This document shows, piece after piece, positions 1,948 to 59,580 of a DNA stretch of 64,000 nt; position 1 is the stretch's first letter; every line of letters starts with the position of its first letter. Source of the DNA: Escherichia phage phiWec179; the sequence record LC739533.1. One strand, written 5' to 3'. The notes beneath the pieces are model-generated. The model saw only the letters and a list, made by a program, of their open reading frames with translations, had not been told where the DNA came from and did no database searches. The translations under genes were made by a program, and so were the position numbers.

Positions 1948-3015
1948 TTGACTACCATGATCCGCCTTGCTACACTGTATTTATTAACTAAGGAGGAAAT
2001 TATGGGCGTGATTAAAGGTTGGGACATTCAGAAGAAAGAATGTGAAGAAGTGGCAAGACCAGGTATTACTGTTCTTGGATTTGTTGAACCGTGGAATGGT
2101 GCACATACCAAACTGATGCTGAAATGTGAGAAGCATGGGGAATGGAATACAACCTCCATCAACAACTTCAAAAAGAATGGTTCTGGTTGTAATGGTTGTA
2201 GAGCGGATATATGTGGTGCAAGAGCAGAAGGGAATAGCTTTGCAAGTAAAAATGCTATCTCAGATGAGCAACACATTAAGGATTTCTTGGCTACCGGATT
2301 GTTTGCAGAGGGGACAACCTTCGTCAATACAGGTGTGAAAACAAAAGGTAATCACAACTGCGTGTGGAAAGTAAGTTGCCCTGTTTGTGCTGTGGATGTA
2401 TATTCTCAAGCTGGTTTATGTGATGGTAGTTTTGAAGGTCTGACTACACACCTTAAGGCTGGAAAGGTTCCTTGTCGTTGCTCTCCACGTCATTGCTATT
2501 CTAAAGACCAATGGTTGTTTAGATTTCAGTTAATGTGTGAAGAAAAAGGTTATACTTTCATCAAGGCCATCTACGAAGGGGAAGCATACTCTCATGGAGA
2601 TGTTGAGTATGCTTGTCCAGAACACGGCTCACAACGCATGACTGTGAAGAACCTCATGTCAGGTAAAGGTTGTCCAGAGTGTGCCAATAAAACACAACAG
2701 TTCTGTTATATCAATGAAGTGTATGATGAAGATAATAATCTCTGCGCTCTTAAATTTGGAATTGCCAATGATGCTGAACGTAGGATCAAAGGTCAGAACT
2801 CGAAGAATGCTTTCACAATGCAACAGAAAGCTGTCTACTTCTTTGATGATATCAAGTCGTGTCGAGCAGCAGAAAGGAAGTGTTTGAAGATGTTGAAGTG
2901 CGGTGTTGTGAATAAATTTCAATTGCAGGATGGACACACAGAAACAACCCATCTGGACAATTACGAAATTATTGAGGCTATTTACGAAAGTTTTGGAGGG
3001 GTGTTACAGAAATGA
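1948..3015 (+). CDS. Cys-rich zinc-ribbon protein with C-terminal T5orf172/GIY-YIG-like domain
   Basis: Repeated C-x-x-C/C-P-E-H-G/C-P-E-C pairs; C-terminal LKFGIANDAERRIKG resembles the KIGxT..RL core of T5orf172 domain; opposite strand to surrounding tail genes. Confidence 0.45.
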   Translation: MTTMIRLATLYLLTKEEIMGVIKGWDIQKKECEEVARPGITVLGFVEPWNGAHTKLMLKCEKHGEWNTTSINNFKKNGSGCNGCRADICGARAEGNSFASKNAISDEQHIKDFLATGLFAEGTTFVNTGVKTKGNHNCVWKVSCPVCAVDVYSQAGLCDGSFEGLTTHLKAGKVPCRCSPRHCYSKDQWLFRFQLMCEEKGYTFIKAIYEGEAYSHGDVEYACPEHGSQRMTVKNLMSGKGCPECANKTQQFCYINEVYDEDNNLCALKFGIANDAERRIKGQNSKNAFTMQQKAVYFFDDIKSCRAAERKCLKMLKCGVVNKFQLQDGHTETTHLDNYEIIEAIYESFGGVLQK

Positions 3016-3040
3016 AAAAAGGGGCCGAAGCCCCTTTCTT
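3015..3040. terminator. Bidirectional rho-independent terminator between convergent genes
   Basis: A-run, GGGGC-CGAA-GCCCC hairpin, T-run; reads as terminator on both strands. Confidence 0.6.
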
Positions 3041-5780: not shown

Positions 5781-5806
5781 AAATAAAAAGGGCATTTCTG
5801 CCCTTT
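5781..5806 (-). terminator. Rho-independent terminator after tail tube gene
   Basis: Hairpin GGGCA-GAAA-TGCCC followed by T-run on minus strand. Confidence 0.6.
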
Positions 5807-5811
5807 CGTTA

Positions 5812-6291: not shown

Positions 6292-6337
6292 TTTGGATCT
6301 CCTTTAGGGATAAGGCGAGGTTGCCCCCGCCAAATTA

Positions 6338-11309: not shown

Positions 11310-11331
11310 TATATTAATCTCCTATCAAAAA

Positions 11332-11724
11332 TTAAGAAGTGAAAACGACTTTTTCAGTCAGTTTCAGATCACGAGTTTCCAGTGCTGCTACGCCAGCGTC
11401 GTCAATCAGATTACCGTTGCTATAGAATACAGCAAAACGGTTCAGAGTCAGGTCGCGTACACCAACAACGGCGGTGAAAGTGTCACCAACTGCAACATCA
11501 TCGATACCGAACAGAGCATCAGTCCACAGCAGAACTTTAGCAGCATCAGCGGCAGCGGCAGCTTCGGTGTTGTCAGCTTTCAGTACGGAACCAATTTTCA
11601 TGGTTGCGGTTTTAACCAGGTTTACTTCGCGTACACAGTGTCCGAGGTCAGAGCTAAAAACTCCACCCAGAACCAGGTGTCCGAATTCCTGGCGAGAGTT
11701 AGATAAAGTAATTCCTTTAGCCAT
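11332..11724 (-). CDS. Hypothetical head protein (decoration-like?)
   Basis: 130 aa ORF between scaffold and capsid candidates. Confidence 0.35.
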   Translation of the reverse strand: MAKGITLSNSRQEFGHLVLGGVFSSDLGHCVREVNLVKTATMKIGSVLKADNTEAAAAADAAKVLLWTDALFGIDDVAVGDTFTAVVGVRDLTLNRFAVFYSNGNLIDDAGVAALETRDLKLTEKVVFTS

Positions 11725-11743
11725 TTAATTTAATCTCCTAAGA

Positions 11744-12862
11744 TTATTGTTTCTGGGCTTTTTTGAGTTCGGCAGCTTTCTGACGAATCAGTTCAGATGC
11801 AGACTTGGCAACAACTTCAACATTGGCAACATCAGCGCCTTGTTCTTTACCAAACTCTTTCTTAACTGCTTCAACTTCTGCACGGGCTTTTTCGAATGCG
11901 TTAACAACAGTTTCAGCGATCTCTTTATTATCGATCAGGTATTTAACCAGAGCTTCAACTTTTTCTTCTTCTACGAAAGCGTAGGACTTAACAACAGTGG
12001 TGTACTCTTCTTCGATACGAGCCAGTTCAGCTTTACGAAGTTCTTCTGCTGCGAGTTCTGCTTTAGCGATCTTTTCCTGTGCTGCCAGTTCTGCTTGTTC
12101 ACGGGCTTCTGTCGCTGCTTTTTCTACAGCTTCAGCAATCTGTGCTTTCATCAGGTCTTGGAATTCGGCAGATTTCAGGAATTCTTCTTTGTTAATATTT
12201 TCCAAAGGTAATTCTCCTTTATTGATTCCAGTTGTGTTTGCAGATTTGTCACCTGCGGGGTTAGCCTCTGCATCCACAGAGTTCTTATTGGTTTGAGCAT
12301 TATGTGCTTTCACCAGATAATCTTTAACTTGATCGTGTTTCAGAGCACCTTTAATAAGATCGCCAAGAGCATCTTCGATCAGGTCTTCAAAGAAATCGAC
12401 GGAAACCATAACGTCACCATCAACAACTTGATAATCGGTAGTACGTACAACAGGTTTAGCAACTTCAGCCAGTTCAACAACTAATCCGTTCAAAGTGAAG
12501 TCCACAGCAAACATGCCGTGATCAGAACAGAAGATTGCAACGTTAGCATCAAAGTCTACATCTGCCAGCCAAACCCAGTCCCAACATGTGGAGAACTTTT
12601 CGTTTACAGCGTTGGCGATGCGGTCCATTACTTGCTGAATGTAACCTTTACGTAATTCAGTAACGTCTTCACCCATTTTAGCCAGAGCTTCGATTTTCTC
12701 GAAGGTCACTTCAGGAGAGCCGTCAGATTTAAAAAGCAGTGGGGTATTGTAACCAGACGCTGCACCACCTTGAAAATCGAAAGTGTATGCGATATGTGCG
12801 CCCAGAGTTTCTTCCGTAGCTTTACCCGAAAAGTCTACGTTAGTAAGATATGTATTTGCCAC
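11744..12862 (-). CDS. Head scaffolding protein (tentative)
   Basis: 372 aa; C-terminal half highly charged alpha-helical repeats (AEELRKAELARIEEE, KAELAAQEKIAKAEL). Confidence 0.45.
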   Translation of the reverse strand: MANTYLTNVDFSGKATEETLGAHIAYTFDFQGGAASGYNTPLLFKSDGSPEVTFEKIEALAKMGEDVTELRKGYIQQVMDRIANAVNEKFSTCWDWVWLADVDFDANVAIFCSDHGMFAVDFTLNGLVVELAEVAKPVVRTTDYQVVDGDVMVSVDFFEDLIEDALGDLIKGALKHDQVKDYLVKAHNAQTNKNSVDAEANPAGDKSANTTGINKGELPLENINKEEFLKSAEFQDLMKAQIAEAVEKAATEAREQAELAAQEKIAKAELAAEELRKAELARIEEEYTTVVKSYAFVEEEKVEALVKYLIDNKEIAETVVNAFEKARAEVEAVKKEFGKEQGADVANVEVVAKSASELIRQKAAELKKAQKQ

Positions 12863-12864
12863 AA

Positions 12865-13344
12865 TTAGTCCTTCTTGACTTTCACGCCCATCGCACCTAT
12901 ACTCAAACCTTTAAGAACACCGTCCTTACGAGCTTGATACAGTTCAGGGTCGTTGAATTGGATTTTAACGAGGGGAGTTCCTTCCACAACGAGTTCGTCA
13001 CCAATGTAACAATCAACTTCGTTCACCCAAGCTTTAACTGGAGCAAATTTGTCTGTGTTCTTCATGTGACCAAGATTACCACTTACGTTAGTAATATTCT
13101 CATTGAAGTTGTCTACCATCTTCCTGATTTCCATATCGGACATACGCTCACCGTGGAGGTCGTCTTTTTCAGGTGGACAATACAATACCTCAATAACCTG
13201 CATTTGCTCTTCGTCAAACTTATTATGTTTGATTACTGTTTGAGGTTGTTGAGGAGGTGTAGAATCTTGTTGGGATGGGGTTGATTCTTTCATACCGCTG
13301 AACGATTTGAAGAGTTCCCAGAGTGTATCTTTATTAAGTTCCAT
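12865..13344 (-). CDS. Hypothetical head assembly protein
   Basis: 159 aa ORF between portal and scaffold candidates. Confidence 0.35.
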   Translation of the reverse strand: MELNKDTLWELFKSFSGMKESTPSQQDSTPPQQPQTVIKHNKFDEEQMQVIEVLYCPPEKDDLHGERMSDMEIRKMVDNFNENITNVSGNLGHMKNTDKFAPVKAWVNEVDCYIGDELVVEGTPLVKIQFNDPELYQARKDGVLKGLSIGAMGVKVKKD

Positions 13345-13435
13345 ATGAACCTCTTAAAAACAAATATCCCATAAATCTTAGTCTACAGGATATTCGTCAT
13401 TTTGTCAATACCTAAAATCAAAAAAGTTTAATTTT

Positions 13436-15001
13436 TTAATTCGATAAGTTTGCTGCTGATGGATCAAGAGCCGAAACGCTGGTGGATGTACCTGTACCTG
13501 CGGTCGCCATACCGTCTCCAGAACGTGAAGTTTTATCTGGCATGAATGTCTCCATATATTCTACGAATTTATCCTTGTCAGAAACAATGTCGTCTGGTAT
13601 ACGATAATCAAAGCCTAACTTCTCTAAGAACTCGTTGATAATTTCCGCTGTAAGTGGAATAGCTCCTGCTGCAACAATCTGTTGGATCGCTTTAGCGTTT
13701 ACTTCAATATCAGGATCGCCCATTTCACCACTAACAAACTTCGGCATATCTTCATCGGAAAGGAAGATATTGTTTAAGCGAAGTGCTTGTGGGATCAATT
13801 GAGAGTTAATAGCTTCAACAACAATATCTACATCACGTTCAATGAAGTGTGAGAGCAGGGTCTGTTTATTATCGGACAATGCAAAGCTGCCAGCGTCCCC
13901 GTCACCCATTATCAATACACCCGCACCAAAACGGTTGTAAATATCCAGTTTACGTTGTTTGATCAGTTCTTGCGTATCAAACTGTTTACCAGCCCCTTCT
14001 ACACCTTGGAACACCAGGTCATACTGACGCATAACAGTGCCTTCATAAACGTCTGAAGGTAATACCATATATGCTTGCTCACCAGAGTGTAGGTTAGCAA
14101 TGTTTGCCTGGAGCACGCGTAAGGACTGTGCTTCATCTCCGGCAGGGTCAAGAGATGCGCGGTTAAGAATATCGCTCGGTACTTTCAGAACAGGCATACC
14201 GCCCAAATCTTTAGAAACACCGATAACTTCGAATTCTTGAATTAAAGATTTTTCACGCCAGCTACGATATACAGCCAACAGAGGTGACACACCCAGAGGA
14301 TTGTTTTCTGTGATATTGCTACCAACAAAAATAACCTTGTTCATGGGGATTTGACGTACACCCAGTTGTAGCTTACTATTACCTGGAGCCAACATAGTAT
14401 TGGTGATGTTCTGGTTTACCGAAATAACGGAGCGACCATCATCAGAATAGGTGAAAGGGTTTGACATATCCAAAGTATCTTGCGGTCGGAAAGCAAGCTT
14501 AGTGAGACGATAATAGCCATAGTATGGACTCTTCGGATCTTCGTCAAGTTCAAACACCTTTTCAGCAAATGCAAAACCGAACTGCTTATATGTAAGAAGA
14601 GATCTCACATACTGGCGTAATGGTGCTTGCATGTTGCGTAACATGTATTCAATAAACTTTGCAGCTTTTCTTGACTTGGCAGAGTTTACGTTGTATTTTA
14701 TTTTAAAGTCGAAAAATGCTCTGTCTACGAAAATGTATGTTGCATCAAGAGCGGTAGCAACATCTGGGTCTTCACCCATTTCCTTATAAGTACGGATGTT
14801 TTCAGGAAAGCGTGTTTCATACGGTTGCATGAAGTTAGTGAATGCTTTGATTGAGTTCAACCCAATCGTCCCGATTTCAGGAGAGAGAAGTAAACTCTTT
14901 TCTTTCTCTGCCTGTTTTGACGGAGAGAGAGCAGCTTTGTTCACTGCACTTTGTTTCCAGTAATCCGACTTCTTAGTGTACTGTCTTTTTTCTGTTGACA
15001 C
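13436..15001 (-). CDS. Portal protein (tentative)
   Basis: 521 aa ORF directly downstream of terminase large subunit; GTG start at 14999-15001 with GGAGGAAG RBS. Confidence 0.5.
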   Translation of the reverse strand: MSTEKRQYTKKSDYWKQSAVNKAALSPSKQAEKEKSLLLSPEIGTIGLNSIKAFTNFMQPYETRFPENIRTYKEMGEDPDVATALDATYIFVDRAFFDFKIKYNVNSAKSRKAAKFIEYMLRNMQAPLRQYVRSLLTYKQFGFAFAEKVFELDEDPKSPYYGYYRLTKLAFRPQDTLDMSNPFTYSDDGRSVISVNQNITNTMLAPGNSKLQLGVRQIPMNKVIFVGSNITENNPLGVSPLLAVYRSWREKSLIQEFEVIGVSKDLGGMPVLKVPSDILNRASLDPAGDEAQSLRVLQANIANLHSGEQAYMVLPSDVYEGTVMRQYDLVFQGVEGAGKQFDTQELIKQRKLDIYNRFGAGVLIMGDGDAGSFALSDNKQTLLSHFIERDVDIVVEAINSQLIPQALRLNNIFLSDEDMPKFVSGEMGDPDIEVNAKAIQQIVAAGAIPLTAEIINEFLEKLGFDYRIPDDIVSDKDKFVEYMETFMPDKTSRSGDGMATAGTGTSTSVSALDPSAANLSN

Positions 15002-15104
15002 TTTCTTCCTCCGGCACTGTGCTTAAAGATCAATAGGGCAAGGGTTAAATAAATTAACCCGCCCATAAAGTCATTGTACACTTTAAAGTAACTTTTGTCA
15101 ACAA

Positions 15105-17183
15105 TTATCTTCGACGAGGAGTACTTACAGTAGTGAAATGCCTGGAGTTCATGTTACTGTACCCAGTAGGTGCATTTGTTGTTGTAGGTATCGCTACAGC
15201 CTTGTGTGCCGTCTCTTTCGCCAGAGTGTTGAAGCAAGATGCTGCGGCATCTGGAAGGTCATCTTTAAGCATTGCTGTAGATCGTTCACCGTTAAAAGAT
15301 TCCAATTCTTTATAAAAGTGATTCAAAGTTTCAATGTTAGGAAATGAATCTTCTACGATATAAACAAAACCATTCTGACAGGCACTACTGAACGGCATGA
15401 AACGTTGAAGTTTCTTTTTGTTGCCTGGCATTGCGTCGGGTTTAACAACAAAACCTTCAACAATAAGTTTCTTAGCTGATTCCGTATATTCAATGAGTCC
15501 AGCACCAGACGGGTCTTTTGGAAGAACGATCTGAACATCTGGTCCATCAATCTTAGCCTGTTGGAGGATCAGGTTATCCCTGTCACCAGGTAAGCGTCGG
15601 AATCTTCCGAAAACTTTACTCTTCTCGTCTATAGCGTCGTAATCATAATCCCCGAAGATATAAATGTTCCCGTTTAGGTCTTTACCCATCTTAACCGATG
15701 CTGTATAGTCGGGATAACGATAACGTTCACTTGGAACGGATACAGCTTTATCCCATGCACGCATATACTTCATGTTGTTAGGAACATCTTTGTATTCTAT
15801 CTTGTGAAGCCATTCACGTTGGAAGAATGATTCCTCTTGAATACGGGCAAACCAACAACCATCCAGAAGCTGTGCTCGCTTGATCGCTGTCTGCGATTTA
15901 AGAGAAGCCAGGTATTTCGGGTTAAGGCGAATCAGTTCAGGGTTATCAAAGATCGTACCGCCGATAAACACAAACGTTTGAGGTTCGATCGTAACAATCT
16001 CACCAGTGTTTGGGTTCTCCATGAAACAGTTTTCAGGATACTTCTCTTTAAGTTCCTCTGCTGTGTCGGCAAATACAGGCTCATCATTTACAATAATGAA
16101 GTAGGTTTGTTTACCACACATATCTTCACGAGGATAACCGCCTTCGTCAAGATAAGGTAACACCCAGTTCAGTACCCAGCTATCCGCATCGGGGTTACAG
16201 GTACAGAGCATGAAAGATGTTTCTGACTCGGAACGCATACGACCGAGAAGATAAAGCATCTCGTACTGGGTGAAATGGGTGAGTTCGTCAAAACCAACCA
16301 TACTGTACTGTGTACCCTGATGGTTAGTCTCGGCTGTAACGTTATCGTTCTCCAGATGGTCAAACTTCAAAGTACCACCGTTAGTGGCCTCAAAGATAAT
16401 GTCCATCGTACTTTCTTTTACGTGTGGTTGTAAAGGAAGATACAAACGTTTAGCTTCTGTAAACAAACCCCCTGGCTTACGGTGTGCAGTAGTGTTCTTA
16501 CGGAATAAGATACCACCGAACAAAGGATCTTTATAGGCAAACTTAAGGGCTTTTAGCAGAAGCAGACGAGACTTGCCGCTATTGCCAGTAACGAAGCAGT
16601 GATTGCCCCGTCTAAGGACAATATAGCTACTTGGAGTTTCAAAGCAATATTTCTTATCATCAGATGTAATAACCTCGTGTATTTTTAAATAAGTGTTTTG
16701 TTTGCCTGGGATGTTAAATGGAACGCGCTTACCGAACGGATCTTCAATGTATCCTTTCAGTGGTGCTCCTGCTTGTTGCAGAGCAATAAGATCTCCCACA
16801 GCAATCTCAAAATGTTTTTTGGATTTCTTTTTCTTGTAAAAGACGAAACGATGCTCCATACTCAACTCTTGGAACACTCCTGCACCATTAGTGATTCGGT
16901 ACAGGTTGTCATCTTTCATATCGTATTCTACGAAGTAAGGTGTGACCAACTCTAAGCGTTTTCTCTTAGGATTATACTGGTAGATATCTTCTCCACTGTA
17001 CTGACTTATTTGTTTCCAACCATCACGGGTAAGATACTCTGTTTCAGCAGATACACAACCTGCGGCACCACCGTAAATCATAACTTCCGGCATTAGATCC
17101 ATTGCCAGCGTCTGTTTACCTGGTTGAGCCTTTACTTCGATATCAGCGCCAGCTAAACTGCCAGCCGCTTTTTTCTTAGCCAC
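15105..17183 (-). CDS. terL: Terminase large subunit, intein-containing precursor
   Basis: N-terminal YGGAAG ... SGKS split Walker A, Walker B-like VGFDELTHF, nuclease-type C-terminal region; GTG start with AAGGAGG RBS. Confidence 0.8.
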   Translation of the reverse strand: MAKKKAAGSLAGADIEVKAQPGKQTLAMDLMPEVMIYGGAAGCVSAETEYLTRDGWKQISQYSGEDIYQYNPKRKRLELVTPYFVEYDMKDDNLYRITNGAGVFQELSMEHRFVFYKKKKSKKHFEIAVGDLIALQQAGAPLKGYIEDPFGKRVPFNIPGKQNTYLKIHEVITSDDKKYCFETPSSYIVLRRGNHCFVTGNSGKSRLLLLKALKFAYKDPLFGGILFRKNTTAHRKPGGLFTEAKRLYLPLQPHVKESTMDIIFEATNGGTLKFDHLENDNVTAETNHQGTQYSMVGFDELTHFTQYEMLYLLGRMRSESETSFMLCTCNPDADSWVLNWVLPYLDEGGYPREDMCGKQTYFIIVNDEPVFADTAEELKEKYPENCFMENPNTGEIVTIEPQTFVFIGGTIFDNPELIRLNPKYLASLKSQTAIKRAQLLDGCWFARIQEESFFQREWLHKIEYKDVPNNMKYMRAWDKAVSVPSERYRYPDYTASVKMGKDLNGNIYIFGDYDYDAIDEKSKVFGRFRRLPGDRDNLILQQAKIDGPDVQIVLPKDPSGAGLIEYTESAKKLIVEGFVVKPDAMPGNKKKLQRFMPFSSACQNGFVYIVEDSFPNIETLNHFYKELESFNGERSTAMLKDDLPDAAASCFNTLAKETAHKAVAIPTTTNAPTGYSNMNSRHFTTVSTPRRR
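16581..17057 (-). mobile_element. Mini-intein inserted in terminase P-loop (159 aa)
   Basis: Insert begins with Cys (CVSAETEY...), ends ...CFVTGN followed by Ser; removing it restores YGGAAGSGKS. No homing endonuclease domain evident. Confidence 0.6.
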
Positions 17184-17192
17184 TTCTCCTCC

Positions 17193-17519
17193 TTACTTAC
17201 TGATAATCCCTTTCTCTTGCAGAGCCTTAATGTAGTTTTGCAGACCGATTACTTTATTACGATCTTGACTCCAGAGAACATTGTTTGTGGTTCCGTTGTC
17301 AACAACTTCTGAACGAGAAACACCTTTCGCCACTTGTTGATCCGTATACGGCACTGGCTCACTTACACCCTCCATAAGAGAGGATTCTGGAGCTTTGACT
17401 TCTTGTACCGCAACAGCTTTACATTCATCAATTAGAATCGGGGAGGCTTTTGTTGAGGATGCGCAACCCGTCATCATTAGGGCCGAAGCAAGACATAGAC
17501 CCAGTAGTAGTTTTTGCAT
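17193..17519 (-). CDS. Outer-membrane lipoprotein, o-spanin-like
   Basis: Signal peptide MQKLLLGLCLASALMMTG-C lipobox; start overlaps 3' end of i-spanin-like ORF in another frame. Confidence 0.45.
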   Translation of the reverse strand: MQKLLLGLCLASALMMTGCASSTKASPILIDECKAVAVQEVKAPESSLMEGVSEPVPYTDQQVAKGVSRSEVVDNGTTNNVLWSQDRNKVIGLQNYIKALQEKGIISK

Positions 17520-17835
17520 AGTTTGTTTTCTCCTCGTTTATCTTCTTTTCCTTGTTTGCTAAATCTTTTCTCAATTGAGCATTCTTGGCAGAGAGTGAAG
17601 CGATTTGGTTATTAAGAGCGAGACGTTCATCATCTGCTTTCTTTTGAAGAACATCAAAATCTTGTTTTGCTTTTGCTTGTTGTTGCTGATAGATAGTTAC
17701 TTGGTGCTGTTCTCCAGCAGTGTAACCATTATCATATAAAGCCTTTCCGCCGAAGTATAAACCAGCTAAAAGGGCTACTAACAGAAGAATAACGTAAAAC
17801 CATTTACTCTTCAGAATCATTGGTATCAGGTTCAT
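17428..17835 (-). CDS. i-spanin-like protein (N-terminal TM plus coiled coil)
   Basis: N-terminal hydrophobic helix then periplasmic coiled coil (QQQQAKAKQDFDVLQKKADDERLALNNQIASLSAKNAQLRKDL); overlapped by lipoprotein gene. Confidence 0.45.
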   Translation of the reverse strand: MNLIPMILKSKWFYVILLLVALLAGLYFGGKALYDNGYTAGEQHQVTIYQQQQAKAKQDFDVLQKKADDERLALNNQIASLSAKNAQLRKDLANKEKKINEEKTNYAKTTTGSMSCFGPNDDGLRILNKSLPDSN

Positions 17836-18100
17836 CTTTAAATCTCACTTTCGGTAAGGATGGAGAGTTATTCACTACCTTCTTCACTTCCATCGGTTGG
17901 GCTTCCGCAAGAATCTCTTCCCACGTCTTCTCGATCATCATCTAATTCGTCCTCAAGATCCCATTGACGGGAATAATCATTCTTTCTGTCGCGGTGGACA
18001 GAAGATTTGTTAAAATCATTCTTAACTACAAAGTTGCGCATATTTTATCCTCCTCAATATTGATCTTATCACAAAACATATACACAATGCAAGCCCTAAA

Positions 18101-18132
18101 AATAAAAAGCCCCTAACCTTTCGGAAAGGGGT
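18101..18132 (-). terminator. Rho-independent terminator
   Basis: GGGG/CCCC-closed hairpin followed by T-run on minus strand. Confidence 0.4.
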
Positions 18133-18181
18133 TGTTAAAATAACAAGGAGGAGAGGGCAAAGCGCCCCAAGAGAGGAGAGG

Positions 18182-18472
18182 TTAAATTACAATTTTCTTA
18201 GGCTGTTCTTCCACAACGGTAGGCGTTTCTTCCTCCATTGCTTCATAATGTTCTTCCAACCAGTCTTCGACTTGCTCTTTAATGGCTTTCGCTGCTTGGA
18301 ATCGGAGAGGTTTTGCTGCTTCGTTGTCATACACAAGTTCAACGATGTATTTCATGGCTGCGAGATAGTTCTCGGCAAACAATTCCTTCACTGTTGCTTG
18401 TGCTGCATCCATAGCGTAAATTTGTTGCATTTCTGCGGTAGGTCGTCCACGACCACGTTTAAGTTTAGGCAT
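18182..18472 (-). CDS. Small basic protein (possible DNA-binding / small terminase candidate)
   Basis: 96 aa; N-terminal KLKRGRGRPT basic motif; position upstream of terminase. Confidence 0.35.
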   Translation of the reverse strand: MPKLKRGRGRPTAEMQQIYAMDAAQATVKELFAENYLAAMKYIVELVYDNEAAKPLRFQAAKAIKEQVEDWLEEHYEAMEEETPTVVEEQPKKIVI

Positions 18473-18562
18473 GTGTATTCCTCCTACAATTTATCGTATC
18501 ATAAAAATATTCTTGTGTCAAGTTTTACTTTTACATGTACAACTGACATACCAATAACCCAG

Positions 18563-18590
18563 AAACAAAAAAGCCTCCACGAGGGAGGCT
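18563..18590 (-). terminator. Rho-independent terminator
   Basis: GCCTCC-ACGAG-GGAGGC hairpin followed by TTTTTTGTTTC on minus strand. Confidence 0.5.
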
Positions 18591-18672
18591 CTATGCGAGT
18601 TAGGGTTAACATGTGTCCCTAATATCATTTTAACATTTCAGTATAAAAATGTCTTTAGGATAATTCTTATAA

Positions 18673-18943
18673 TTAAGGTCTGTTGATTACCTTAACAGTT
18701 TGTCCTTTGTCGTTCATCAGATAGGCTGATTCAGTTTTGTGAACAAAGATAACACGTTCACCTGCGATAACAGAGGCTACCACGCCATCTGGTCGATCAT
18801 AACCTTCCCAATGATACTGAATAATTACGTCATCCTCTAAGCAGTAAAAGAATTCTTCTTCATTTACATTGAAAGGGACGGTATTGTAAATCTTTACTTC
18901 ATCTTCTTTAGAAAATTTACGGATTGTTTTTAACGTATACATG
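18673..18943 (-). CDS. Hypothetical protein
   Basis: About 90 aa from ATG at 18943; the longer listed ORF to 19170 runs through tRNA genes and is rejected. Confidence 0.4.
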
Positions 18944-19049
18944 ATGTGTCCTATTAAGTATTTAGTGTTTAGTGGGTTGTGCGTTTTAGGAGTCGCACCC
19001 CTCCCTCTTAGAAGGAACCAGGCAAGGTCTTCAAAGATACCGCTGGCGC

Positions 19050-19128
19050 GATATTTGGAGGCGGGAATCGGATTCGAACCGATGATCTCCAGCATATGAA
19101 ACTGGCGAGGACGACCAAACTCCTCTAT
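19050..19128 (-). tRNA. tRNA with anticodon CAU (Met or Ile2)
   Basis: Hand-folded: acceptor AGCGGGA/TCCCGCC (1:72 mismatch), anticodon stem CCAGT/GCTGG, loop TTCATAT, T-arm ATCGG-TTCGAAT-CCGAT, encoded CCA. Confidence 0.6.
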
Positions 19129-19134
19129 CCCGCT

Positions 19135-19205
19135 ATTAGGTGTCCCGTGCTGGATTCGAACCAGCATCACAATAAGTTGTGGATCTCTTATCCTGTAAGT
19201 CTAAC
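19135..19205 (-). tRNA. tRNA-like element, non-canonical (no standard anticodon arm found)
   Basis: Perfect T-arm GCTGG-TTCGAAT-CCAGC and near-complementary acceptor strands, but the middle forms a CACAA/TTGTG tetraloop hairpin instead; no encoded CCA. Confidence 0.3.
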
Positions 19206-19206
19206 G

Positions 19207-19280
19207 GGAAACTGGTTGTTTCGACAAGAATCGAACTTGTGTCTCACGATTATCAGTCGTGGGTTCTACCATTGAACTAC
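19207..19280 (-). tRNA. tRNA-Ile (GAU)
   Basis: Acceptor TGTTTCG/CGAAACA, D-arm GTTC-AATGGTA-GAAC, anticodon arm CACGA-CTGATAA-TCGTG, T-arm ACAAG-TTCGATT-CTTGT, encoded ACCA. Confidence 0.75.
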
Positions 19281-19286
19281 GAAACA

Positions 19287-30251: not shown

Positions 30252-30277
30252 AGCCGCCCTTCGGGGCGGTTATTGTG
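30252..30277 (+). terminator. Rho-independent terminator (weak T-run)
   Basis: CCGCCC-TTCG-GGGCGG hairpin followed by TTATTGT. Confidence 0.4.
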
Positions 30278-31185: not shown

Positions 31186-31214
31186 TTGACTTGCAGACTT
31201 CATTGTGATACTAT
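31186..31214 (+). promoter_or_regulatory. Sigma70-like promoter
   Basis: TTGACT -35, 17-nt spacer, TACTAT -10. Confidence 0.5.
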
Positions 31215-31243
31215 GCCTACCTACTCAACGAGGTAGGCTTTTA
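31215..31243 (+). terminator. Hairpin with T-run overlapping promoter-proximal leader
   Basis: GCCTACCT-ACTCAACG-AGGTAGGC then TTTT; may terminate upstream transcripts or structure the leader. Confidence 0.4.
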
Positions 31244-31506: not shown

Positions 31507-32598
31507 TTGCACAAGTATGTTGACCTAAACACTGTTGTGGTTATTGACTACGATCAGGTTGCTTTCCAAGCGGCTTCTGCTGTAGAGAAGCGTCGTATCT
31601 TGGCTAAACATGCAGCCTCCGGTTCCGAAAAAGAATTTGACAATAAGACAGAGTTTTGGGGTAAGAGTAAGACTGAAATTGGTGGTTGGCTTGGAGCATT
31701 GAATGCTAAACGAGAAGAGCAGGGTAAACGTCCTTTCACCAAAGAAGAGTTTGAAATTATTGATGTGCAATACGTACCAGACACTTTGTCACATGCTTTT
31801 CAAGCAGCTAAAACAAAAGTTCAAGCGATCTTAAAGCATTTAAGTTTAGAAAAATATTGCGGAGTTATCGGTGTAGGGAAAACCTTCCGACATGATTTTA
31901 AGATGCCTACCGAATATAAATCTGAACGATCTGACATTAAGCCTTTACAACTATCCGATACCAAAGACTACTTGGTAGAGCAACACAATGGGGATGTTGT
32001 TACGGTTATCGAAGCCGATGATGAATTAGAGAAGTACGGTTTCCAAGGCTACAAAGATTACAAACGCACAGGCAAATTCTCTTACATCCTGGCGTCAATA
32101 GATAAAGACAGCCTATCCACTCCAAGCATCCTCTTTAACTTCTACAAAGAAGACGGTGTATTCAAGAATCCCGATATCATTCTGATAGACGAGTCCATTG
32201 GAGATTTGTGGATTGTTGAGAAGGGCAAGAAAAAAGAGGTTAAGGGTTGGGGATCTTTCTGGTTGGCCTATCAGATGCTGATGGGAGATAAAACGGATAG
32301 CATCCGTCCTTACCAGGATTTTGGTATTAAGTTTGGAGATGTTTCTTGTTTCAACTTGATATCTGAATGCAAGACCCAAGCTGAACTTTTCCAGAAAGTG
32401 AAAGATACATTTTATACCTGGTTCCCTGAAGGTGTTAAATTTACATCTTGGGATGGGGAAGCAGTAGAATTAACAACCGATCAATGGATCGAGACAATAT
32501 TCCAACTCGTTTACATGAAACGTTGGGATAACGATAACACAACTTTTGAGAGTATGCTTCAAGCGTACATTTCACAACAGGAGATAATTAATGAGTAA
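31507..32598 (+). CDS. 5'-3' exonuclease / flap endonuclease-like (tentative)
   Basis: N-terminal VVVIDYDQVAFQAA resembles FEN/PIN motif; LMGDKTDSIRPYQDFGIKFGDV resembles H3TH LxGDxxDNIPG..GIG; apparent TTG start. Confidence 0.45.
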   Translation: MHKYVDLNTVVVIDYDQVAFQAASAVEKRRILAKHAASGSEKEFDNKTEFWGKSKTEIGGWLGALNAKREEQGKRPFTKEEFEIIDVQYVPDTLSHAFQAAKTKVQAILKHLSLEKYCGVIGVGKTFRHDFKMPTEYKSERSDIKPLQLSDTKDYLVEQHNGDVVTVIEADDELEKYGFQGYKDYKRTGKFSYILASIDKDSLSTPSILFNFYKEDGVFKNPDIILIDESIGDLWIVEKGKKKEVKGWGSFWLAYQMLMGDKTDSIRPYQDFGIKFGDVSCFNLISECKTQAELFQKVKDTFYTWFPEGVKFTSWDGEAVELTTDQWIETIFQLVYMKRWDNDNTTFESMLQAYISQQEIINE

Positions 32599-33556
32599 AT
32601 TAACAACAGAGCAGAAAGTAGAAATCATTAGCCTTAAAACACAAGGTCTTTCTTCTCGCCAGATCGCTGCATTAGTTCTCGGTAGCGCGACAAAGAAAAG
32701 CACAGTGAACGATTTCTTGGTTCGTGAAAACTCTGCCAATGCTGGAACTCCTAAAGTTAAACCAGAAGGTCCAGTAGTTAAAATTATTGACGTTGAAACA
32801 GCACCAGAAATTGCGTATACTTTCCGTCGATTCAAAGCTTTTATCTCTCCTGATCAGGTGATTCGCCGTGGTTACTTGCTGTCCTACTCTTCCGCAGATC
32901 TGCGTACTGCTGAAGTTGAAGGTAAGAACTTGGCAAGCTACCCTCTGTTCGATATTGATCACACAGACGATTGGGAACTGTGTCAAGACATTTGGAAGCT
33001 TCTGGATGAAGCTGATATCGTTGTAGCTCACAACGGTGTTAAATTTGACCGTGCTTATATTAACCAGCGTTTCGCATACCACGGAATGGTTCCTCCGTCG
33101 AACTATGTTGTGGTCGATACTCTGAAAGCGGCTAAGAAACAATTCTTCTTACCGTCTAATTCTCTGAAAGAGATGGGTGCTTACTTCGAAACAGAGAGCG
33201 AAAAACTTGATAACGAAGGGTTCCCATTGTGGAAGGCTTGTTGTGAAGGTGATCGTGATGCGTTTGAACGTATGCAAACTTACAACGATGGTGATGTAGT
33301 TTCTCTGCGAGATCTGTACATTAAGATTCTGGCATGGATTCCGCAACATCCTAACGTATCTGCTTACTACGAAGATACCAAAGTTCGTTGCTCTCGTTGT
33401 GGCAGTGCACATGTGAATGTACTGGCAGATAAGAAGTACCACACAGCAGTAAGTTCTTTTGATATTATTCGTTGTGAAGATTGTGGTGGACTTTCTCGTG
33501 GACGTGTTAACAGCCGTTCCAAAGATAAGATGAAAAACACCATTGTAGGGATTTAA
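32591..33556 (+). CDS. DEDDh-type 3'-5' exonuclease with N-terminal HTH and C-terminal zinc ribbon
   Basis: IIDVETAPE (Exo I), VVAHNGVKFDRAYI (Exo II), YNDGDV (Exo III); C-terminal CSRCG ... CEDCGG. Confidence 0.55.
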   Translation: MSKLTTEQKVEIISLKTQGLSSRQIAALVLGSATKKSTVNDFLVRENSANAGTPKVKPEGPVVKIIDVETAPEIAYTFRRFKAFISPDQVIRRGYLLSYSSADLRTAEVEGKNLASYPLFDIDHTDDWELCQDIWKLLDEADIVVAHNGVKFDRAYINQRFAYHGMVPPSNYVVVDTLKAAKKQFFLPSNSLKEMGAYFETESEKLDNEGFPLWKACCEGDRDAFERMQTYNDGDVVSLRDLYIKILAWIPQHPNVSAYYEDTKVRCSRCGSAHVNVLADKKYHTAVSSFDIIRCEDCGGLSRGRVNSRSKDKMKNTIVGI

Positions 33557-33561
33557 TAAGA

Positions 33562-33590
33562 AAGGGGCTTCGGCCCCTTTTTTAATTTAA
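33562..33590 (+). terminator. Rho-independent terminator
   Basis: AGGGGC-TTCG-GCCCCT hairpin followed by TTTTTTAATTT. Confidence 0.7.
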
Positions 33591-33593: not shown

Positions 33594-33622
33594 TTGACAT
33601 AGAGAACCAAGTGCGATACAAT
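33594..33622 (+). promoter_or_regulatory. Near-consensus sigma70 promoter
   Basis: TTGACA -35, 17-nt spacer, TACAAT -10. Confidence 0.6.
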
Positions 33623-37150: not shown

Positions 37151-37180
37151 TTGACTTTAGTGTTAGATTTAGTGTAGTAT
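37151..37180 (+). promoter_or_regulatory. Sigma70-like promoter
   Basis: TTGACT -35, 18-nt spacer, TAGTAT -10; followed by leader hairpin GGGGG...CCCCC. Confidence 0.4.
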
Positions 37181-37230
37181 AGCAAAACGTTGGGGGAGGT
37201 GAGATTCCCCCTTTATAAAAGGAGAAAATT

Positions 37231-40152: not shown

Positions 40153-40157
40153 CAATA

Positions 40158-40181
40158 CAGGGGCTTCGGCCCCTTTTTTAT
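40158..40181 (+). terminator. Rho-independent terminator after nrdA
   Basis: AGGGGC-TTCG-GCCCCT followed by TTTTTT. Confidence 0.65.
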
Positions 40182-40193
40182 TGAGGAGCGATT

Positions 40194-46485: not shown

Positions 46486-46506
46486 AAGGGGCGCAAGCCC
46501 CTTCTA
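46486..46506 (+). terminator. Hairpin, weak terminator
   Basis: GGGGC-GCAA-GCCCC followed by TTCT. Confidence 0.35.
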
Positions 46507-46520
46507 TAAGGAGTGCTACT

Positions 46521-48504: not shown

Positions 48505-48527
48505 CTGCCCCTTCGGGGGCATTTCTT
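48505..48527 (+). terminator. Rho-independent terminator
   Basis: GCCCC-TTCG-GGGGC followed by ATTTCTT. Confidence 0.45.
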
Positions 48528-49925: not shown

Positions 49926-49946
49926 TATTGCTTGAAGTAGTTGGTA

Positions 49947-49978
49947 CTCTCCTTGTTTCGGCAAGGAGGGTATTTTTA
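49947..49978 (+). terminator. Hairpin with T-run
   Basis: CTCCTTG-TTTCGG-CAAGGAG followed by TATTTTTA. Confidence 0.45.
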
Positions 49979-49989
49979 AGGAGGAAATT

Positions 49990-54214: not shown

Positions 54215-54238
54215 AACCCGCTTCGGCGGGTTTTTTAT
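54215..54238 (+). terminator. Rho-independent terminator
   Basis: CCCGC-TTCG-GCGGG followed by TTTTTTATT. Confidence 0.7.
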
Positions 54239-54247: not shown

Positions 54248-54276
54248 GTTGACAAGACACGAAGAACCTGGTAGAC
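54248..54276 (+). promoter_or_regulatory. Sigma70-like promoter
   Basis: TTGACA -35, 17-nt spacer, TAGACT -10. Confidence 0.5.
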
Positions 54277-54305
54277 TTGTCTCATCAACTAAGAGAGGAG
54301 GATAT

Positions 54306-58923: not shown

Positions 58924-58948
58924 CCAAGGGGCTACGGCCCCTTTCTTA
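58924..58948 (+). terminator. Rho-independent terminator
   Basis: AGGGGC-TACG-GCCCCT followed by TTCTTATT. Confidence 0.55.
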
Positions 58949-58961
58949 TTAGGAGATTACT

Positions 58962-59234: not shown

Positions 59235-59268
59235 AAGAAAGGCACCCAAGTGGGTGCCTTTTCTATTT
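59234..59268. terminator. Bidirectional terminator between convergent gene blocks
   Basis: A-run, AGGCACCC-AAG-TGGGTGCCT hairpin, T-run. Confidence 0.6.
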
Positions 59269-59555: not shown

Positions 59556-59580
59556 ATGAAAAAACCCGCCGAAGCGGGTT
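59556..59580 (-). terminator. Rho-independent terminator
   Basis: ACCCGC-TTCG-GCGGGT followed by TTTTTTCAT on minus strand. Confidence 0.6.

What the first reader, a model, noticed from the sequence alone, without database searches (positions are those of the whole stretch)
33562..33590. Family of near-identical terminator hairpins with UUCG/GNRA-type tetraloops
At least eight intergenic hairpins share the core (A)GGGGC-NNNN-GCCCC(T) with tetraloops TTCG, CGAA, GCAA or TACG (3021, 33563, 40159, 46488, 48507, 54217, 58926, 59565). Such uniformity suggests a reused terminator cassette, which is useful for defining operon boundaries.
Basis: seen in the sequence. Interest (0 to 1): 0.2.

Follow-up and report, generated by a model that had tools for sequence, protein, structure and literature searches.

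The report
Ordinary phage transcription terminator hairpins
The repeated GC-rich hairpins are the phage's ordinary factor-independent transcription stop or slow-down signals, capped with the extra-stable UUCG or GNRA loops long known from such signals, and the matching sites in a sister phage are already annotated as predicted terminators.

Summary
The window is Escherichia phage phiWec181/186 (Phapecoctavirus). The hairpins are real and far above chance, but only 5 of the 8 listed share GGGGC-N4-GCCCC. The other three have different GC stems, and at least four further members were missed.

On the transcribed strand the loops read UUCG (7 plus one u(UUCG)g), UACG (1), GCAA (2) and GAAA (1). 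"CGAA" is just UUCG on minus-strand genes. Most hairpins start 1-8 nt after a stop codon, fold at -11 to -19 kcal/mol, and are followed by a full or interrupted U tract.

The same intergenic sites carry hairpins in relatives whose flanking genes are only 72-82% identical. Stems show compensatory changes, and loops swap between UUCG, UACG, GCAA and GAAA. Schickermooser (NC_048196.1) already annotates at least 11 of these orthologous sites as ARNOLD-predicted terminators.

Near-copies of the focal hairpin occur in 2,926 phage records of unrelated groups and in 1,605 E. coli genomes. The uniformity therefore reflects a generic optimal design, not a phage-specific cassette.

Best reading: Rho-independent terminators or attenuators for host RNA polymerase. 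Only some mark operon boundaries. Seven leave 17-33 nt before the next start codon, so that gene needs read-through. Termination was not measured. Verdict: ordinary, already known, low interest.

The parts
33561..33586 (+). Focal hairpin AAAGGGGC-UUCG-GCCCCUUU plus U6 tract, 4 nt after the stop codon of the RNase_H/DnaQ-like exonuclease gene (32591-33556). Canonical strong intrinsic terminator.
   Evidence: (MFE -17.9 kcal/mol, z = -3.6). Identical in phiWec188. ESCO32 has the same stem with a GAAA loop, and Schickermooser has a different hairpin annotated as an ARNOLD terminator at this site.
33594..33622 (+). Sigma70-type promoter TTGACA-17-TACAAT directly downstream of the focal terminator. 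Together they form a real transcription-unit boundary.
   Evidence: (11 of 12 matches). phiWec188 keeps this promoter; Schickermooser has a different TTGACA-containing promoter-like sequence at the same place.
3012..3040 (-). Bidirectional terminator between convergent genes: the tape-measure gene 3039-4994(-) and the CapR/T5orf172-like gene 2002-3015(+). On the minus strand it reads AAGAAAGGGGC-UUCG-GCCCCUUUUUU, and it shares 27 identical nt with the 33561 site.
   Evidence: The Schickermooser orthologue after the tape-measure gene has a different stem, ACCTCGC-TTCG-GCGGGG, and is annotated as an ARNOLD terminator.
5782..5806 (-). AAAGGGCA-GAAA-UGCCCUUUUUAUU, a GNRA-capped terminator inside the tail-gene array.
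   Evidence: (z = -4.7). The identical hairpin is annotated as an ARNOLD terminator in Schickermooser.
6314..6331 (-). GGCGGGG-GCAA-CCUCGCC hairpin with one G.U pair and a weak U tract (UUAUCCC). Probable weak attenuator or RNA-stability hairpin.
   Evidence: Schickermooser has a different GC hairpin with a non-special loop at this site.
30253..30277 (+). GCCGCCC-UUCG-GGGCGG followed by UUAUUGUG, 33 nt before the next start codon, with no room for a promoter.
   Evidence: ESCO32 has AAGCCCC-UUCG-GGGGCUU with compensatory stem changes. ZCKP1 and Schickermooser have 5-nt loops.
40159..40180 (+). AGGGGC-UUCG-GCCCCU plus U6, 6 nt after the nrdA stop codon and 19 nt before the next start codon. Intra-operon attenuator.
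   Evidence: The hairpin is identical in ZCKP1, Schickermooser and phiWec188; Schickermooser annotates it as an ARNOLD terminator.
46486..46509 (+). AAGGGGC-GCAA-GCCCCUU followed by the poor U tract CUAUAA, 17 nt before the PhoH-like gene. Weak terminator or 3'-end-stabilising hairpin.
   Evidence: At this site the loop is GCAA (window clade), TTCG (phAPEC8 clade) or GAAA (phi92 clade) on a constant stem.
48506..48527 (+). UGCCCC-UUCG-GGGGCA followed by UUUCUU, 23 nt before the next start codon.
   Evidence: Identical in ZCKP1 and Schickermooser. ESCO32 has AACCCCC-GCAA-GGGGGUU.
49943..49979 (+). Fourteen-pair hairpin closed by u(UUCG)g and followed by UUUUU.
   Evidence: (-19 kcal/mol, z = -3.9). 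Schickermooser has a different stem with the same u(UUCG)g cap, annotated as an ARNOLD terminator.
54215..54238 (+). AACCCGC-UUCG-GCGGGUU plus U6. Strong terminator followed by a promoter.
   Evidence: z = -3.3. Identical in ZCKP1, Schickermooser and phiWec188, and present in ESCO32. Schickermooser annotates it as an ARNOLD terminator.
54249..54277 (+). Sigma70-type promoter TTGACA-17-TAGACT with an extended -10 TG, downstream of the 54215 terminator.
   Evidence: A TTGACA also follows the ESCO32 orthologue.
58926..58952 (+). AAGGGGC-UACG-GCCCCUU followed by UCUUAUU, after the Sir2/cobB-like gene and 18 nt before the next start codon.
   Evidence: The loop is UUCG in ZCKP1 and Schickermooser (annotated as an ARNOLD terminator) and GAAA in ESCO32.
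59557..59580 (-). AACCCGC-UUCG-GCGGGUU plus U6 on the minus strand. It shares 22 identical nt with the 54215 site and lies downstream of a promoter-like site at 59628-59600.
   Evidence: z = -3.4. The hairpin is identical in ZCKP1, Schickermooser and phiWec188, and ESCO32 has the same core at the syntenic position. Schickermooser annotates it as an ARNOLD terminator.
59238..59261 (.). Bidirectional terminator AAAGGCACCC-AAGU-GGGUGCCUUU between convergent genes. Same function, but the loop is not UNCG or GNRA.
   Evidence: Annotated as an ARNOLD terminator in Schickermooser. The loop appears as its reverse complement in phiWec188 and ZCKP1.

Best explanation
These are Rho-independent (intrinsic) transcription terminators and attenuators read by the host E. 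coli RNA polymerase.

**Proposed mechanism (inferred from the textbook model, not measured here).**
1. Each element is transcribed into a short RNA hairpin with a 5-8 bp G/C-rich core stem. The stem is often lengthened by A-U pairs from an upstream A tract.
2. An unusually stable tetraloop caps the stem and nucleates fast folding. It is C(UUCG)G in most cases, otherwise UACG, GCAA or GAAA.
3. The hairpin forms in the RNA exit channel while the polymerase sits on the weak rU:dA hybrid of the following U tract, and the transcript is released.

**Graded strength (inferred from sequence).**
- Uninterrupted U5-U6 tracts: 3018(-), 5787(-), 33561, 40159, 54215 and 59563(-). These should be efficient.
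- Where such a site is followed by a sigma70-type promoter (33561, 54215) or lies between convergent genes (3018), it marks a true transcription-unit end.
- Interrupted U tracts with no room for a downstream promoter: 30254, 46486, 48506 and 58926. Site 40159 also lacks a downstream promoter despite its U6. These must be leaky.
- The leaky sites most likely step down transcript levels along the long early/middle operon. The terminated or processed RNA then carries a 3' hairpin that protects it from 3'-to-5' exonucleases.

**Why they look alike.** Selection favours one generic optimal design. The similarity does not require copying of a cassette.
For: **Shown by sequence**
- The hairpins and their excess over chance are real.
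- All fold as predicted, at -12.7 to -19 kcal/mol and z -1.9 to -4.7.
- They start 1-8 nt after stop codons, except 49949 (23 nt) and 59563 (44 nt), and are followed by T-rich tails.
- The special loop is always on the transcribed strand: 9 of 9 co-directional sites in the window (sign test p = 0.004). With 6 more sites elsewhere in the genome this is 15 of 15. That points to RNA function, not a DNA palindrome.
- Near-consensus sigma70 promoters sit in the same intergenic regions, so host polymerase transcribes this region.

**Comparative**
- Hairpins occupy the same intergenic sites in ZCKP1, Schickermooser, ESCO32 and phiWec188, although flanking coding sequence is only 72-82% identical outside phiWec188.
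- Stems differ by compensatory pairs at 30254, 48506, 49949, 3018 and 59238.
- Loops interchange only among stable classes. Site 46486 has GCAA, UUCG or GAAA; site 58926 has UACG, UUCG or GAAA; site 33561 has UUCG or GAAA.
- In a 22-hairpin alignment all 8 stem pairs show two-sided changes and 93% of cells pair. This set was chosen as hairpins, so the test is circular.

**Prior annotation and literature**
- NC_048196.1 annotates 'putative transcriptional terminator, determined by ARNOLD' at orthologues of 3018, 5787, 31215, 33561, 40159, 49949, 54215, 57596, 58926, 59238 and 59563.
- UUCG and GAAA hairpins are described as Rho-independent terminators and as T4 mRNA reverse-transcriptase stops, citing Tuerk 1988 and d'Aubenton-Carafa 1990 (PMC3972237).
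- Phage terminators are commonly leaky: in phage LUZ7 more than 60% had termination efficiency below 50% (PMC9163698).

**Ubiquity**
- A 40-nt query around 33561 hits 2,926 phage records, several under features named 'terminator', and 1,605 E. coli genomes.
Against: - No transcript 3'-end data exist for this phage or, as far as two searches of the held open-access library showed, for any Phapecoctavirus. Termination itself is inferred.
- Four or five members have interrupted or poor U tracts: 46486 CUAUAA, 30254 UUAUUGUG, 6314 UUAUCCC, 48506 UUUCUU and 58926 UCUUAUU. These may terminate weakly or not at all.
- Seven sites are followed within 17-33 nt by the next start codon with no promoter between. 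If they were efficient terminators, downstream genes such as nrdB, the dTDP-rhamnose genes and the PhoH-like gene would be starved of transcript.
- At 59563, and at the non-family hairpins 31215, 37192 and 57596, a promoter-like site lies upstream of the hairpin. That arrangement fits a leader or attenuator role better than simple end-of-operon termination.
- The simple scan tool did not list the focal hairpin in the plus orientation.
Confidence: 0.85

Rival explanations
1. Some or all of the hairpins are mainly mRNA 3'-end stabilisers or processing barriers, not terminators. After RNase cleavage or distal termination, 3'-to-5' exonucleases trim back to the very stable tetraloop hairpin. This sets differential stability of the segments of a polycistronic transcript.
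For: - Several members lack a good U tract (46486, 30254, 6314) and sit inside operons with no downstream promoter.
- Hairpin stability is conserved, with loops switching only among extra-stable classes. This model predicts exactly that.
- C(UUCG)G hairpins were first noted as T4 mRNA structures that stop reverse transcriptase (PMC3972237).
Against: - Six members carry uninterrupted U5-U6 tracts directly after the stem. A pure exonuclease barrier does not need these.
- Two of them are followed by fresh promoters.
- The two roles do not exclude each other, so this refines the best explanation for the weak members more than it replaces it.
Confidence: 0.3
2. The hairpins are copies of one sequence cassette spread within the genome by duplication, gene conversion or a small mobile element.
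For: - 3018(-) and 33561 share 27 identical nt (TAAGAAAGGGGCTTCGGCCCCTTTTTT), and 54215 and 59563(-) share 22 nt.
- At those two sites Schickermooser has different hairpins.
- GGGGC-stem hairpins tend to carry one loop per genome: GAAA at all three in ESCO32 and UUCG at all three in the Schickermooser stretch examined. UUCG and GNRA loops differ at 3-4 of 4 positions on an unchanged stem. Both hint at concerted evolution.
- The 3018 site adjoins an inserted CapR/T5orf172-like gene that is absent from Schickermooser.
Against: - Identity stops at the edges of the extended hairpin and its U-rich tail, and the surrounding sequence is unrelated.
- Every site is orthologously conserved in relatives, so no recent spread is visible.
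- There are no terminal repeats or target duplications.
- The same 20-23-mer occurs in unrelated phages such as Pectobacterium POP18, the T1-like TG1 and an Aeromonas phage, and related sequences occur in 2,926 phage records and 1,605 E. coli genomes. Independent convergence is evidently common.
- Only three clades were compared, so the one-loop-per-genome pattern is anecdotal.
Confidence: 0.12
3. The palindromes act at the DNA level, for example as protein-binding sites or as cruciform, replication or recombination signals, and are not RNA elements.
For: They are perfect inverted repeats. One of them, 59238, shows a flipped loop between close relatives, which is a DNA-level event.
Against: - A DNA palindrome has no strand preference. 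Yet the UNCG or GNRA reading is on the sense strand at 15 of 15 co-directional sites genome-wide, and never only on the antisense strand.
- The T tract is asymmetric and lies on the sense strand.
- Stems change by compensatory pairs, so no fixed recognition sequence is kept.
- The elements sit strictly after stop codons.
Confidence: 0.03

Closest known systems
Rho-independent (intrinsic) terminators of E. coli and its phages, as modelled by d'Aubenton-Carafa, Brody and Thermes 1990 and predicted by ARNold or TransTermHP
   Same: GC-rich stem, 4-nt loop enriched for UUCG and GNRA, a U tract immediately 3', an optional upstream A tract giving bidirectionality, and a position just after stop codons. 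Orthologous hairpins are annotated as ARNOLD terminators in NC_048196.1.
   Different: Nothing in kind. About half of the members have interrupted U tracts and no downstream promoter, so they probably act as leaky attenuators rather than full stops. Activity has not been measured.
C(UUCG)G hairpins of bacteriophage T4 intercistronic regions (Tuerk et al. 1988); UNCG and GNRA tetraloops in general
   Same: The C-G closing pair plus a UUCG loop occurs at seven intergenic sites, with further UACG, GCAA and GAAA loops. The setting is between cistrons in a large virulent coliphage. PMC3972237 summarises the T4 and terminator association. T4-like phages are among the hits to the focal 40-mer.
   Different: This is a different phage family (Stephanstirmvirinae, not Straboviridae). 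The T4 observation itself is recalled from memory and from a secondary citation, because the original paper is not in the held library.
Synthetic terminators built on the same plan, such as iGEM BBa_B1002 (CCCCGC-TTCG-GCGGGG plus T6); the sequence is recalled from memory and was not checked here
   Same: Nearly the same sequence as the window's AACCCGC-TTCG-GCGGGTTTTTT and Schickermooser's ACCTCGC-TTCG-GCGGGGTTTTTT. This illustrates that the design is the engineer's textbook terminator.
   Different: The synthetic parts were tested in reporters. The phage elements have not been.
REP/BIME-type or MITE-like intergenic repeat families
   Same: They are short, GC-rich, palindromic, multi-copy and intergenic, and can stabilise upstream mRNA.
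   Different: There is no shared sequence beyond the hairpin and its U-rich tail, no terminal repeats, several different stems, and orthologous rather than mobile distribution.

Membership tests
Rho-independent (intrinsic) terminator | Stable G/C-rich RNA stem-loop formed by the sense transcript | tested here: met
   All 11 window elements tested fold as predicted, at -12.7 to -19 kcal/mol and z -1.9 to -4.7. Core hairpins are -10 to -13 kcal/mol.
Rho-independent (intrinsic) terminator | U-rich tract immediately 3' of the stem | tested here: inconclusive
   An uninterrupted U5-U6 tract follows 3018(-), 5787(-), 33561, 40159, 54215 and 59563(-). The tract is interrupted or poor at 48506, 58926, 30254, 46486 and 6314. 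The feature is met for about half of the members.
Rho-independent (intrinsic) terminator | Located at the 3' end of a gene or transcription unit, oriented with the gene | tested here: met
   Hairpins start 1-8 nt after stop codons at 10 of the 12 sites measured. The special loop is on the sense strand at 9 of 9 co-directional sites, and at 15 of 15 genome-wide.
Rho-independent (intrinsic) terminator | Transcript 3' ends or polymerase release at the site without Rho | not testable with these tools
   No RNA 3'-end data are available. Two searches of the held literature found no transcript-mapping study of a Phapecoctavirus.
UNCG / GNRA stable tetraloop hairpin | Loop sequence UNCG or GNRA; for the extra-stable UUCG form, a C-G closing pair | tested here: met
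   On the sense strand the window has cUUCGg at 7 sites, cUACGg at 1, cGCAAg at 1, gGCAAc at 1, aGAAAu at 1 and uUUCGg at 1. The closing pair is C-G in 20 of 22 aligned family members. The loop three-dimensional fold itself is not testable here.
Mobile or duplicated intergenic repeat (REP-, MITE- or cassette-like) | Copies share sequence beyond the functional hairpin (flanks, terminal repeats) and differ in presence or absence between close relatives | tested here: not met
   Flanks are unrelated outside the extended stem and U-rich tail. The sites are orthologously conserved in four relatives. The same core is found in thousands of unrelated phage records.
Curated RNA family (Rfam) | Match to a covariance model at the gathering threshold | tested here: not met
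   The only Rfam hits in the window are 10 tRNAs. Generic terminators are not an Rfam family, so this says little.

The most novel reading that the evidence does not exclude
The terminator hairpins of one genome may not evolve independently. They may be homogenised or replaced as units, by short-patch gene conversion or template switching between the near-identical palindromes, or by import with inserted genes.

This would explain four observations:
- The 27-nt and 22-nt identical pairs within this genome.
- The tendency towards one loop per genome (GAAA in ESCO32, UUCG in Schickermooser).
- Loop changes at all four positions on an unchanged stem.
- The flipped loop at 59238.

The graded series of leaky hairpins with no intervening promoters may also be a programmed attenuation ladder, possibly overridden by an unknown phage antitermination activity.
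Probability: 0.12. Interest if true: 0.3.

Novelty: already known. Interest (0 to 1): 0.1.

Why it matters
The practical value is modest. The LC739534/LC739535 records carry no regulatory annotation. The hairpin list above, combined with the sigma70-type promoters, gives a first transcription-unit map of the early/middle and structural regions.

The map carries a warning. Only hairpins with a full U tract plus a downstream promoter, or a convergent gene, should be read as operon ends. The rest are probably leaky attenuators.

The comparative pattern is a tidy textbook illustration of selection on RNA thermodynamics rather than on sequence. The site stays the same, the stem changes by compensation, and the loop jumps between UUCG, UACG, GCAA and GAAA. 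None of this changes current understanding of terminators or of these phages.

Tried and rejected
- **Chance.** Rejected by dinucleotide shuffles.
- **Rfam scan of the window.** It returned only 10 tRNAs.
- **The tool's terminator scan.** It found most members but missed the focal hairpin and listed 46486 only in the antisense orientation. Stems, tails and distances were therefore recomputed by script.
- **IMG/VR scan with the site-46486 pattern.** It gave only 4 loci, all belonging to the three clades already seen, so it did not widen the sample.
- **Cassette or mobile-element reading.** Considered because of the 27-nt and 22-nt identical pairs. Downgraded after the 40-mer search showed the same core in 2,926 phage records and 1,605 E. 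coli genomes, and after the orthology analysis.
- **DNA-palindrome reading.** Rejected on strand asymmetry.
- **The 22-sequence covariation count.** It is strong but circular, because the sequences were picked as perfect hairpins. The argument rests instead on orthologues located by flanking-gene projection.
- **Literature.**
  - Tuerk 1988 and the T4 genome review are not in the held library.
  - One search had a term too short and one found nothing.
  - Two searches for papers linking terminators and tetraloops returned mostly structural or modelling papers.
  - A third yielded PMC3972237, the secondary citation used here.
  - Two searches found no transcript-mapping study of a Phapecoctavirus.
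- **Blastn projection of flanks into ESCO32.** It failed at many sites because of divergence. ESCO32 orthologues were instead assigned by gene order and a hairpin census, which is less rigorous.
Full report
**1. What the window is**

A 4-kb segment around the finding is 100% identical to Escherichia phages phiWec181 and phiWec186 (Phapecoctavirus, Stephanstirmvirinae, 154,550 bp). The whole window equals LC739535.1 53451-117450 except for one base at 59611.

These records annotate only CDS and tRNAs, nearly all 'hypothetical protein', with no regulatory features. Better-annotated relatives supply the gene functions:
- Window 1-18,472 (minus strand) holds structural genes: tape measure, sheath, major capsid, portal and large terminase.
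- Window 19,056-21,113 holds 10 tRNAs.
- Window 22,489-59,234 (plus strand) is one long array of early/middle genes. It includes DNA ligase, exonucleases, thymidylate synthase, nrdA/nrdB, dTDP-rhamnose genes, lysozyme, a PhoH-like gene, a Ser/Thr phosphatase and a Sir2/cobB-like gene.
- From about 59,300 onward there are small minus-strand genes.

**2. Checking the observation**

The focal hairpin is at the stated coordinates. Window 33561-33580 reads AAAGGGGC-TTCG-GCCCCTTT, a run of six T follows, and the site lies 4 nt after the stop codon of CDS 32591-33556.

The exact pattern GGGGC-N4-GCCCC occurs five times against none in 100 shuffles.
- 48506 is TGCCCC-TTCG-GGGGCA.
- 54215 and 59563(-) are both AACCCGC-TTCG-GCGGGTT.
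- The 'CGAA' loops are simply UUCG read on the wrong strand for minus-strand genes.

- 30254 GCCGCCC-TTCG-GGGCGG
- 5787(-) AAAGGGCA-GAAA-TGCCCTTT
- 6314-6331(-) GGCGGGG-GCAA-CCTCGCC
- 49943-49974, a 14-pair hairpin capped by u(UUCG)g

Other terminator-like hairpins have ordinary loops: 10262-10293(-), 18564-18592(-), 57596-57626 and the bidirectional 59238-59261.

The statistics are clear:
- GC-rich perfect tetraloop hairpins: 15 observed against 4.5 +/- 2.0 in 200 dinucleotide shuffles.
- Those with a UNCG or GNRA loop: 10 observed against 0.40 +/- 0.65, maximum 3.
- Of 49 looser tetraloop hairpins, 15 are intergenic. Ten of these have a UNCG or GNRA loop on the sense strand, against 3 of 34 in genes (Fisher p = 7e-5).
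- No intergenic hairpin has such a loop only on the antisense strand.

It is real and non-random, but less uniform and more numerous than described.

**3. Anatomy**

- *Loops.* On the transcribed strand the loops are UUCG (seven with a C-G closing pair, plus one closed by U.G), UACG, GCAA (twice) and GAAA.
- *Stability.* Core stems fold at -10 to -13 kcal/mol. In 41-51-nt context the structures are -12.7 to -19 kcal/mol with z-scores of -1.9 to -4.7.
- *Position.* Ten of the 12 sites measured start 1-8 nt after the stop codon.
- *Strong tails.* Uninterrupted U5-U6 follows 3018(-), 5787(-), 33561, 40159, 54215 and 59563(-).
- *Weak tails.* The tract is interrupted at 48506 (UUUCUU), 58926 (UCUUAUU), 30254 (UUAUUGUG), 46486 (CUAUAA) and 6314 (UUAUCCC).
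- *Downstream promoters.* Near-consensus sigma70-type promoters follow only 33561 (TTGACA-17-TACAAT, 33594-33622) and 54215 (TTGACA-17-TAGACT, 54249-54277).
- *Convergent genes.* 3018 and 59238 lie between convergent genes, and their upstream A tracts make them bidirectional.
- *No room for a promoter.* At 30254, 40159, 46486, 48506, 49949, 58926 and 5787 only 17-33 nt, essentially a Shine-Dalgarno sequence, separates the hairpin from the next start codon. Those downstream genes can only be transcribed by read-through.

**4. Comparative evidence**

Syntenic regions were fetched from phiWec188, Klebsiella phage ZCKP1, Escherichia phage Schickermooser and the Justusliebigvirus ESCO32. Orthologous gaps were located by projecting 300-nt flanks. 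Apart from phiWec188, the flanks are only 72-82% identical. The hairpins sit at the same sites.

- *Identical hairpins.* Those at 40159, 48506, 54215 and 59563 are identical across Phapecoctavirus, so they are better conserved than the neighbouring coding sequence.
- *Changed stems.* Where sequences differ, the hairpin survives.
  - Site 30254 has CCGCCC/GGGCGG in the window and AGCCCC/GGGGCU in ESCO32.
  - Site 48506 has UGCCCC-UUCG in the window and AACCCCC-GCAA in ESCO32.
  - Site 49949 keeps the u(UUCG)g cap on a different stem.
  - Site 3018 has GGGGC in the window and CCUCGC/GCGGGG in Schickermooser.
- *Changed loops.* Loops change only among the special classes.
  - Site 46486 is GCAA in the window clade, UUCG in the phAPEC8 clade and GAAA in the phi92 clade.
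  - Site 58926 is UACG, UUCG or GAAA.
  - Site 33561 is UUCG or GAAA.
- *Exceptions.* A few orthologues carry ordinary loops. Examples are the Schickermooser hairpin at the 33561 site and the ESCO32 hairpin after nrdA. The tetraloop is therefore preferred, not obligatory.
- *Alignment test.* A 22-sequence alignment shows two-sided changes at all eight stem pairs. Those sequences were selected as hairpins, so the weight rests on the flank-projected orthologues.
- *Rest of the genome.* Six more GC-rich UNCG or GNRA hairpins were found elsewhere in the genome, all with the special loop on the sense strand. That makes 15 of 15 co-directional sites.

**5. Prior knowledge**

- The Schickermooser RefSeq record already carries 'putative transcriptional terminator, determined by ARNOLD' at the orthologues of 3018, 5787, 10273, 31215, 33561, 40159, 49949, 54215, 57596, 58926, 59238 and 59563.
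- Another Phapecoctavirus paper reports 55 predicted terminators for phage ASO2A (PMC10612097).
- PMC3972237 summarises the link between UUCG and GAAA hairpins, T4 mRNA and Rho-independent terminators, citing Tuerk 1988 and d'Aubenton-Carafa 1990. The originals are not in the held library.
- A 40-nt query around 33561 matches 2,926 of 50,697 phage records. These include T4-like, T5-like and T1-like phages and phages of Klebsiella, Salmonella, Vibrio, Erwinia, Aeromonas and Pseudomonas, and several hits lie under features named 'terminator'. Exact 20-23-nt identity occurs in unrelated phages.
- The same query matches 1,605 of 5,426 complete E. coli genomes.

The sequence is therefore a generic design and not a signature of this phage.

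**6. Mechanism**

The best-supported reading (confidence about 0.85) is intrinsic termination and attenuation of host RNA polymerase. The hairpin, nucleated by the stable tetraloop, forms in the exit channel while the polymerase sits on the U-tract hybrid, and the RNA is released.

*Shown here:* structure, strand polarity, position, conservation, compensatory change and co-occurrence with sigma70 promoters.

*Inferred:* termination itself and its efficiency.

The sites fall into two grades:
- Full-strength boundary terminators: 33561, 54215, 3018 and probably 5787.
- Leaky intra-operon attenuators that also leave a protective 3' hairpin: 30254, 46486, 48506, 58926 and, despite its U6, 40159.

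Leaky phage terminators are well documented. In phage LUZ7 more than 60% of mapped terminators had efficiency below 50% (PMC9163698).

Site 59563 does not fit cleanly, because a promoter-like site lies upstream of it. It may act on both upstream transcripts and newly started ones.

**7. Rivals**

- *Pure 3'-end stabiliser.* This is plausible for the weak-tail members and compatible with the main model (0.3, overlapping).
- *Copied cassette or gene conversion.* It is suggested by the 27-nt identity of 3018(-) and 33561, the 22-nt identity of 54215 and 59563(-), and the one-loop-per-genome pattern. It is weakened by unrelated flanks, orthologous inheritance and the ubiquity of the same core elsewhere (0.12).
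- *DNA-level palindrome.* Rejected by strand asymmetry (0.03).
- *Chance.* Rejected.

**8. Verdict**

The finding is real but ordinary. It describes textbook Rho-independent terminator hairpins with UNCG or GNRA caps, already predicted at the orthologous sites of a sister phage. 'Near-identical cassette' overstates the uniformity and implies copying, for which there is little evidence. 'Operon boundaries' holds for only a minority of the sites. Interest is low (0.1), and the novelty rating is 'already known'.

Noticed in passing
window 31186-31238, 37151-37211, 57552-57626 (+) and 59628-59557 (-): At four intergenic sites a sigma70-like promoter lies upstream of the hairpin, giving promoter, then hairpin, then Shine-Dalgarno sequence, then gene. 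At 31215 the -10 element abuts the hairpin, so the transcription start would fall inside its 5' arm. The 37192 hairpin has no U tract. The arrangements at 31215 and 37192 are conserved out to ESCO32, with compensatory stem changes at 37192 (GGGGGA/UCCCCC, GGGAGGA/UCCUCCC, AGGAGAGC/GCUCUCCU). These look like 5'-leader hairpins or overlapping terminator-promoter modules rather than simple terminators.
   Followed up: partly
window 59238-59261: The 4-nt loop of the 10-bp perfect bidirectional terminator is AAGT in the window and Schickermooser, but its reverse complement ACTT in phiWec188 (flanks 98-100% identical) and ZCKP1. This suggests recurrent loop inversion at the palindrome.
   Followed up: no
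L012 18775-28237 (LC739535.1 about 136,200-145,700; outside the window): A second, different repeated hairpin family has 8 perfect copies: (G)GCGGCA-ATGG-TGCCGC(C). It is usually preceded by ACGTAGG, usually followed by TCACAAC, a Shine-Dalgarno sequence and ATG, and has no U tract. At L012 24170-24080(-) it sits directly downstream of TTGACA-17-TAAATT. It is probably a repeated early-promoter plus 5'-leader cassette in front of small early genes. The window holds no copy.
   Followed up: partly
window 2002-3015 (+): This gene, convergent with the tape-measure gene, encodes a CapR-homology protein (E = 3.6e-27) with weak treble-clef zinc-finger and T5orf172 matches. It resembles a homing-endonuclease-type insertion. 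Schickermooser has no gene here, and its tape-measure terminator has a different stem, so the insertion may have brought or replaced the terminator.
   Followed up: partly
L003 19898-20105 (ZCKP1, orthologue of window 40153-40193): ZCKP1 has about 170 extra nt between the nrdA stop codon and the conserved AGGGGC-TTCG-GCCCCT hairpin. The hairpin stays next to the downstream gene. In Schickermooser the small gene after the hairpin is missing and nrdB follows directly.
   Followed up: no
window 59611: The only difference between the window and phiWec186 across 64 kb is G versus A at 59611. It falls in the spacer of the promoter-like site 59628-59600 and in the small hairpin that overlaps its -10 element.
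   Followed up: no
window 18473-21370 (-): The cluster of 10 tRNA genes has long, highly structured spacers of up to 583 nt and several promoter-like sites. The tRNA repertoire differs among relatives: 10 in Schickermooser with Asn instead of Tyr, 11 in the phiWec188 stretch examined, and 15 in the ESCO32 stretch examined.
   Followed up: no
window 33561-33586: The consensus terminator scan did not report the focal hairpin. The likely cause is that its maximal stem extension (AAGAAAGGGGC...GCCCCTTTTTT) uses up the T tract. It reported 46486 only in the antisense orientation. This is a caution for anyone relying on that scan alone.
   Followed up: yes
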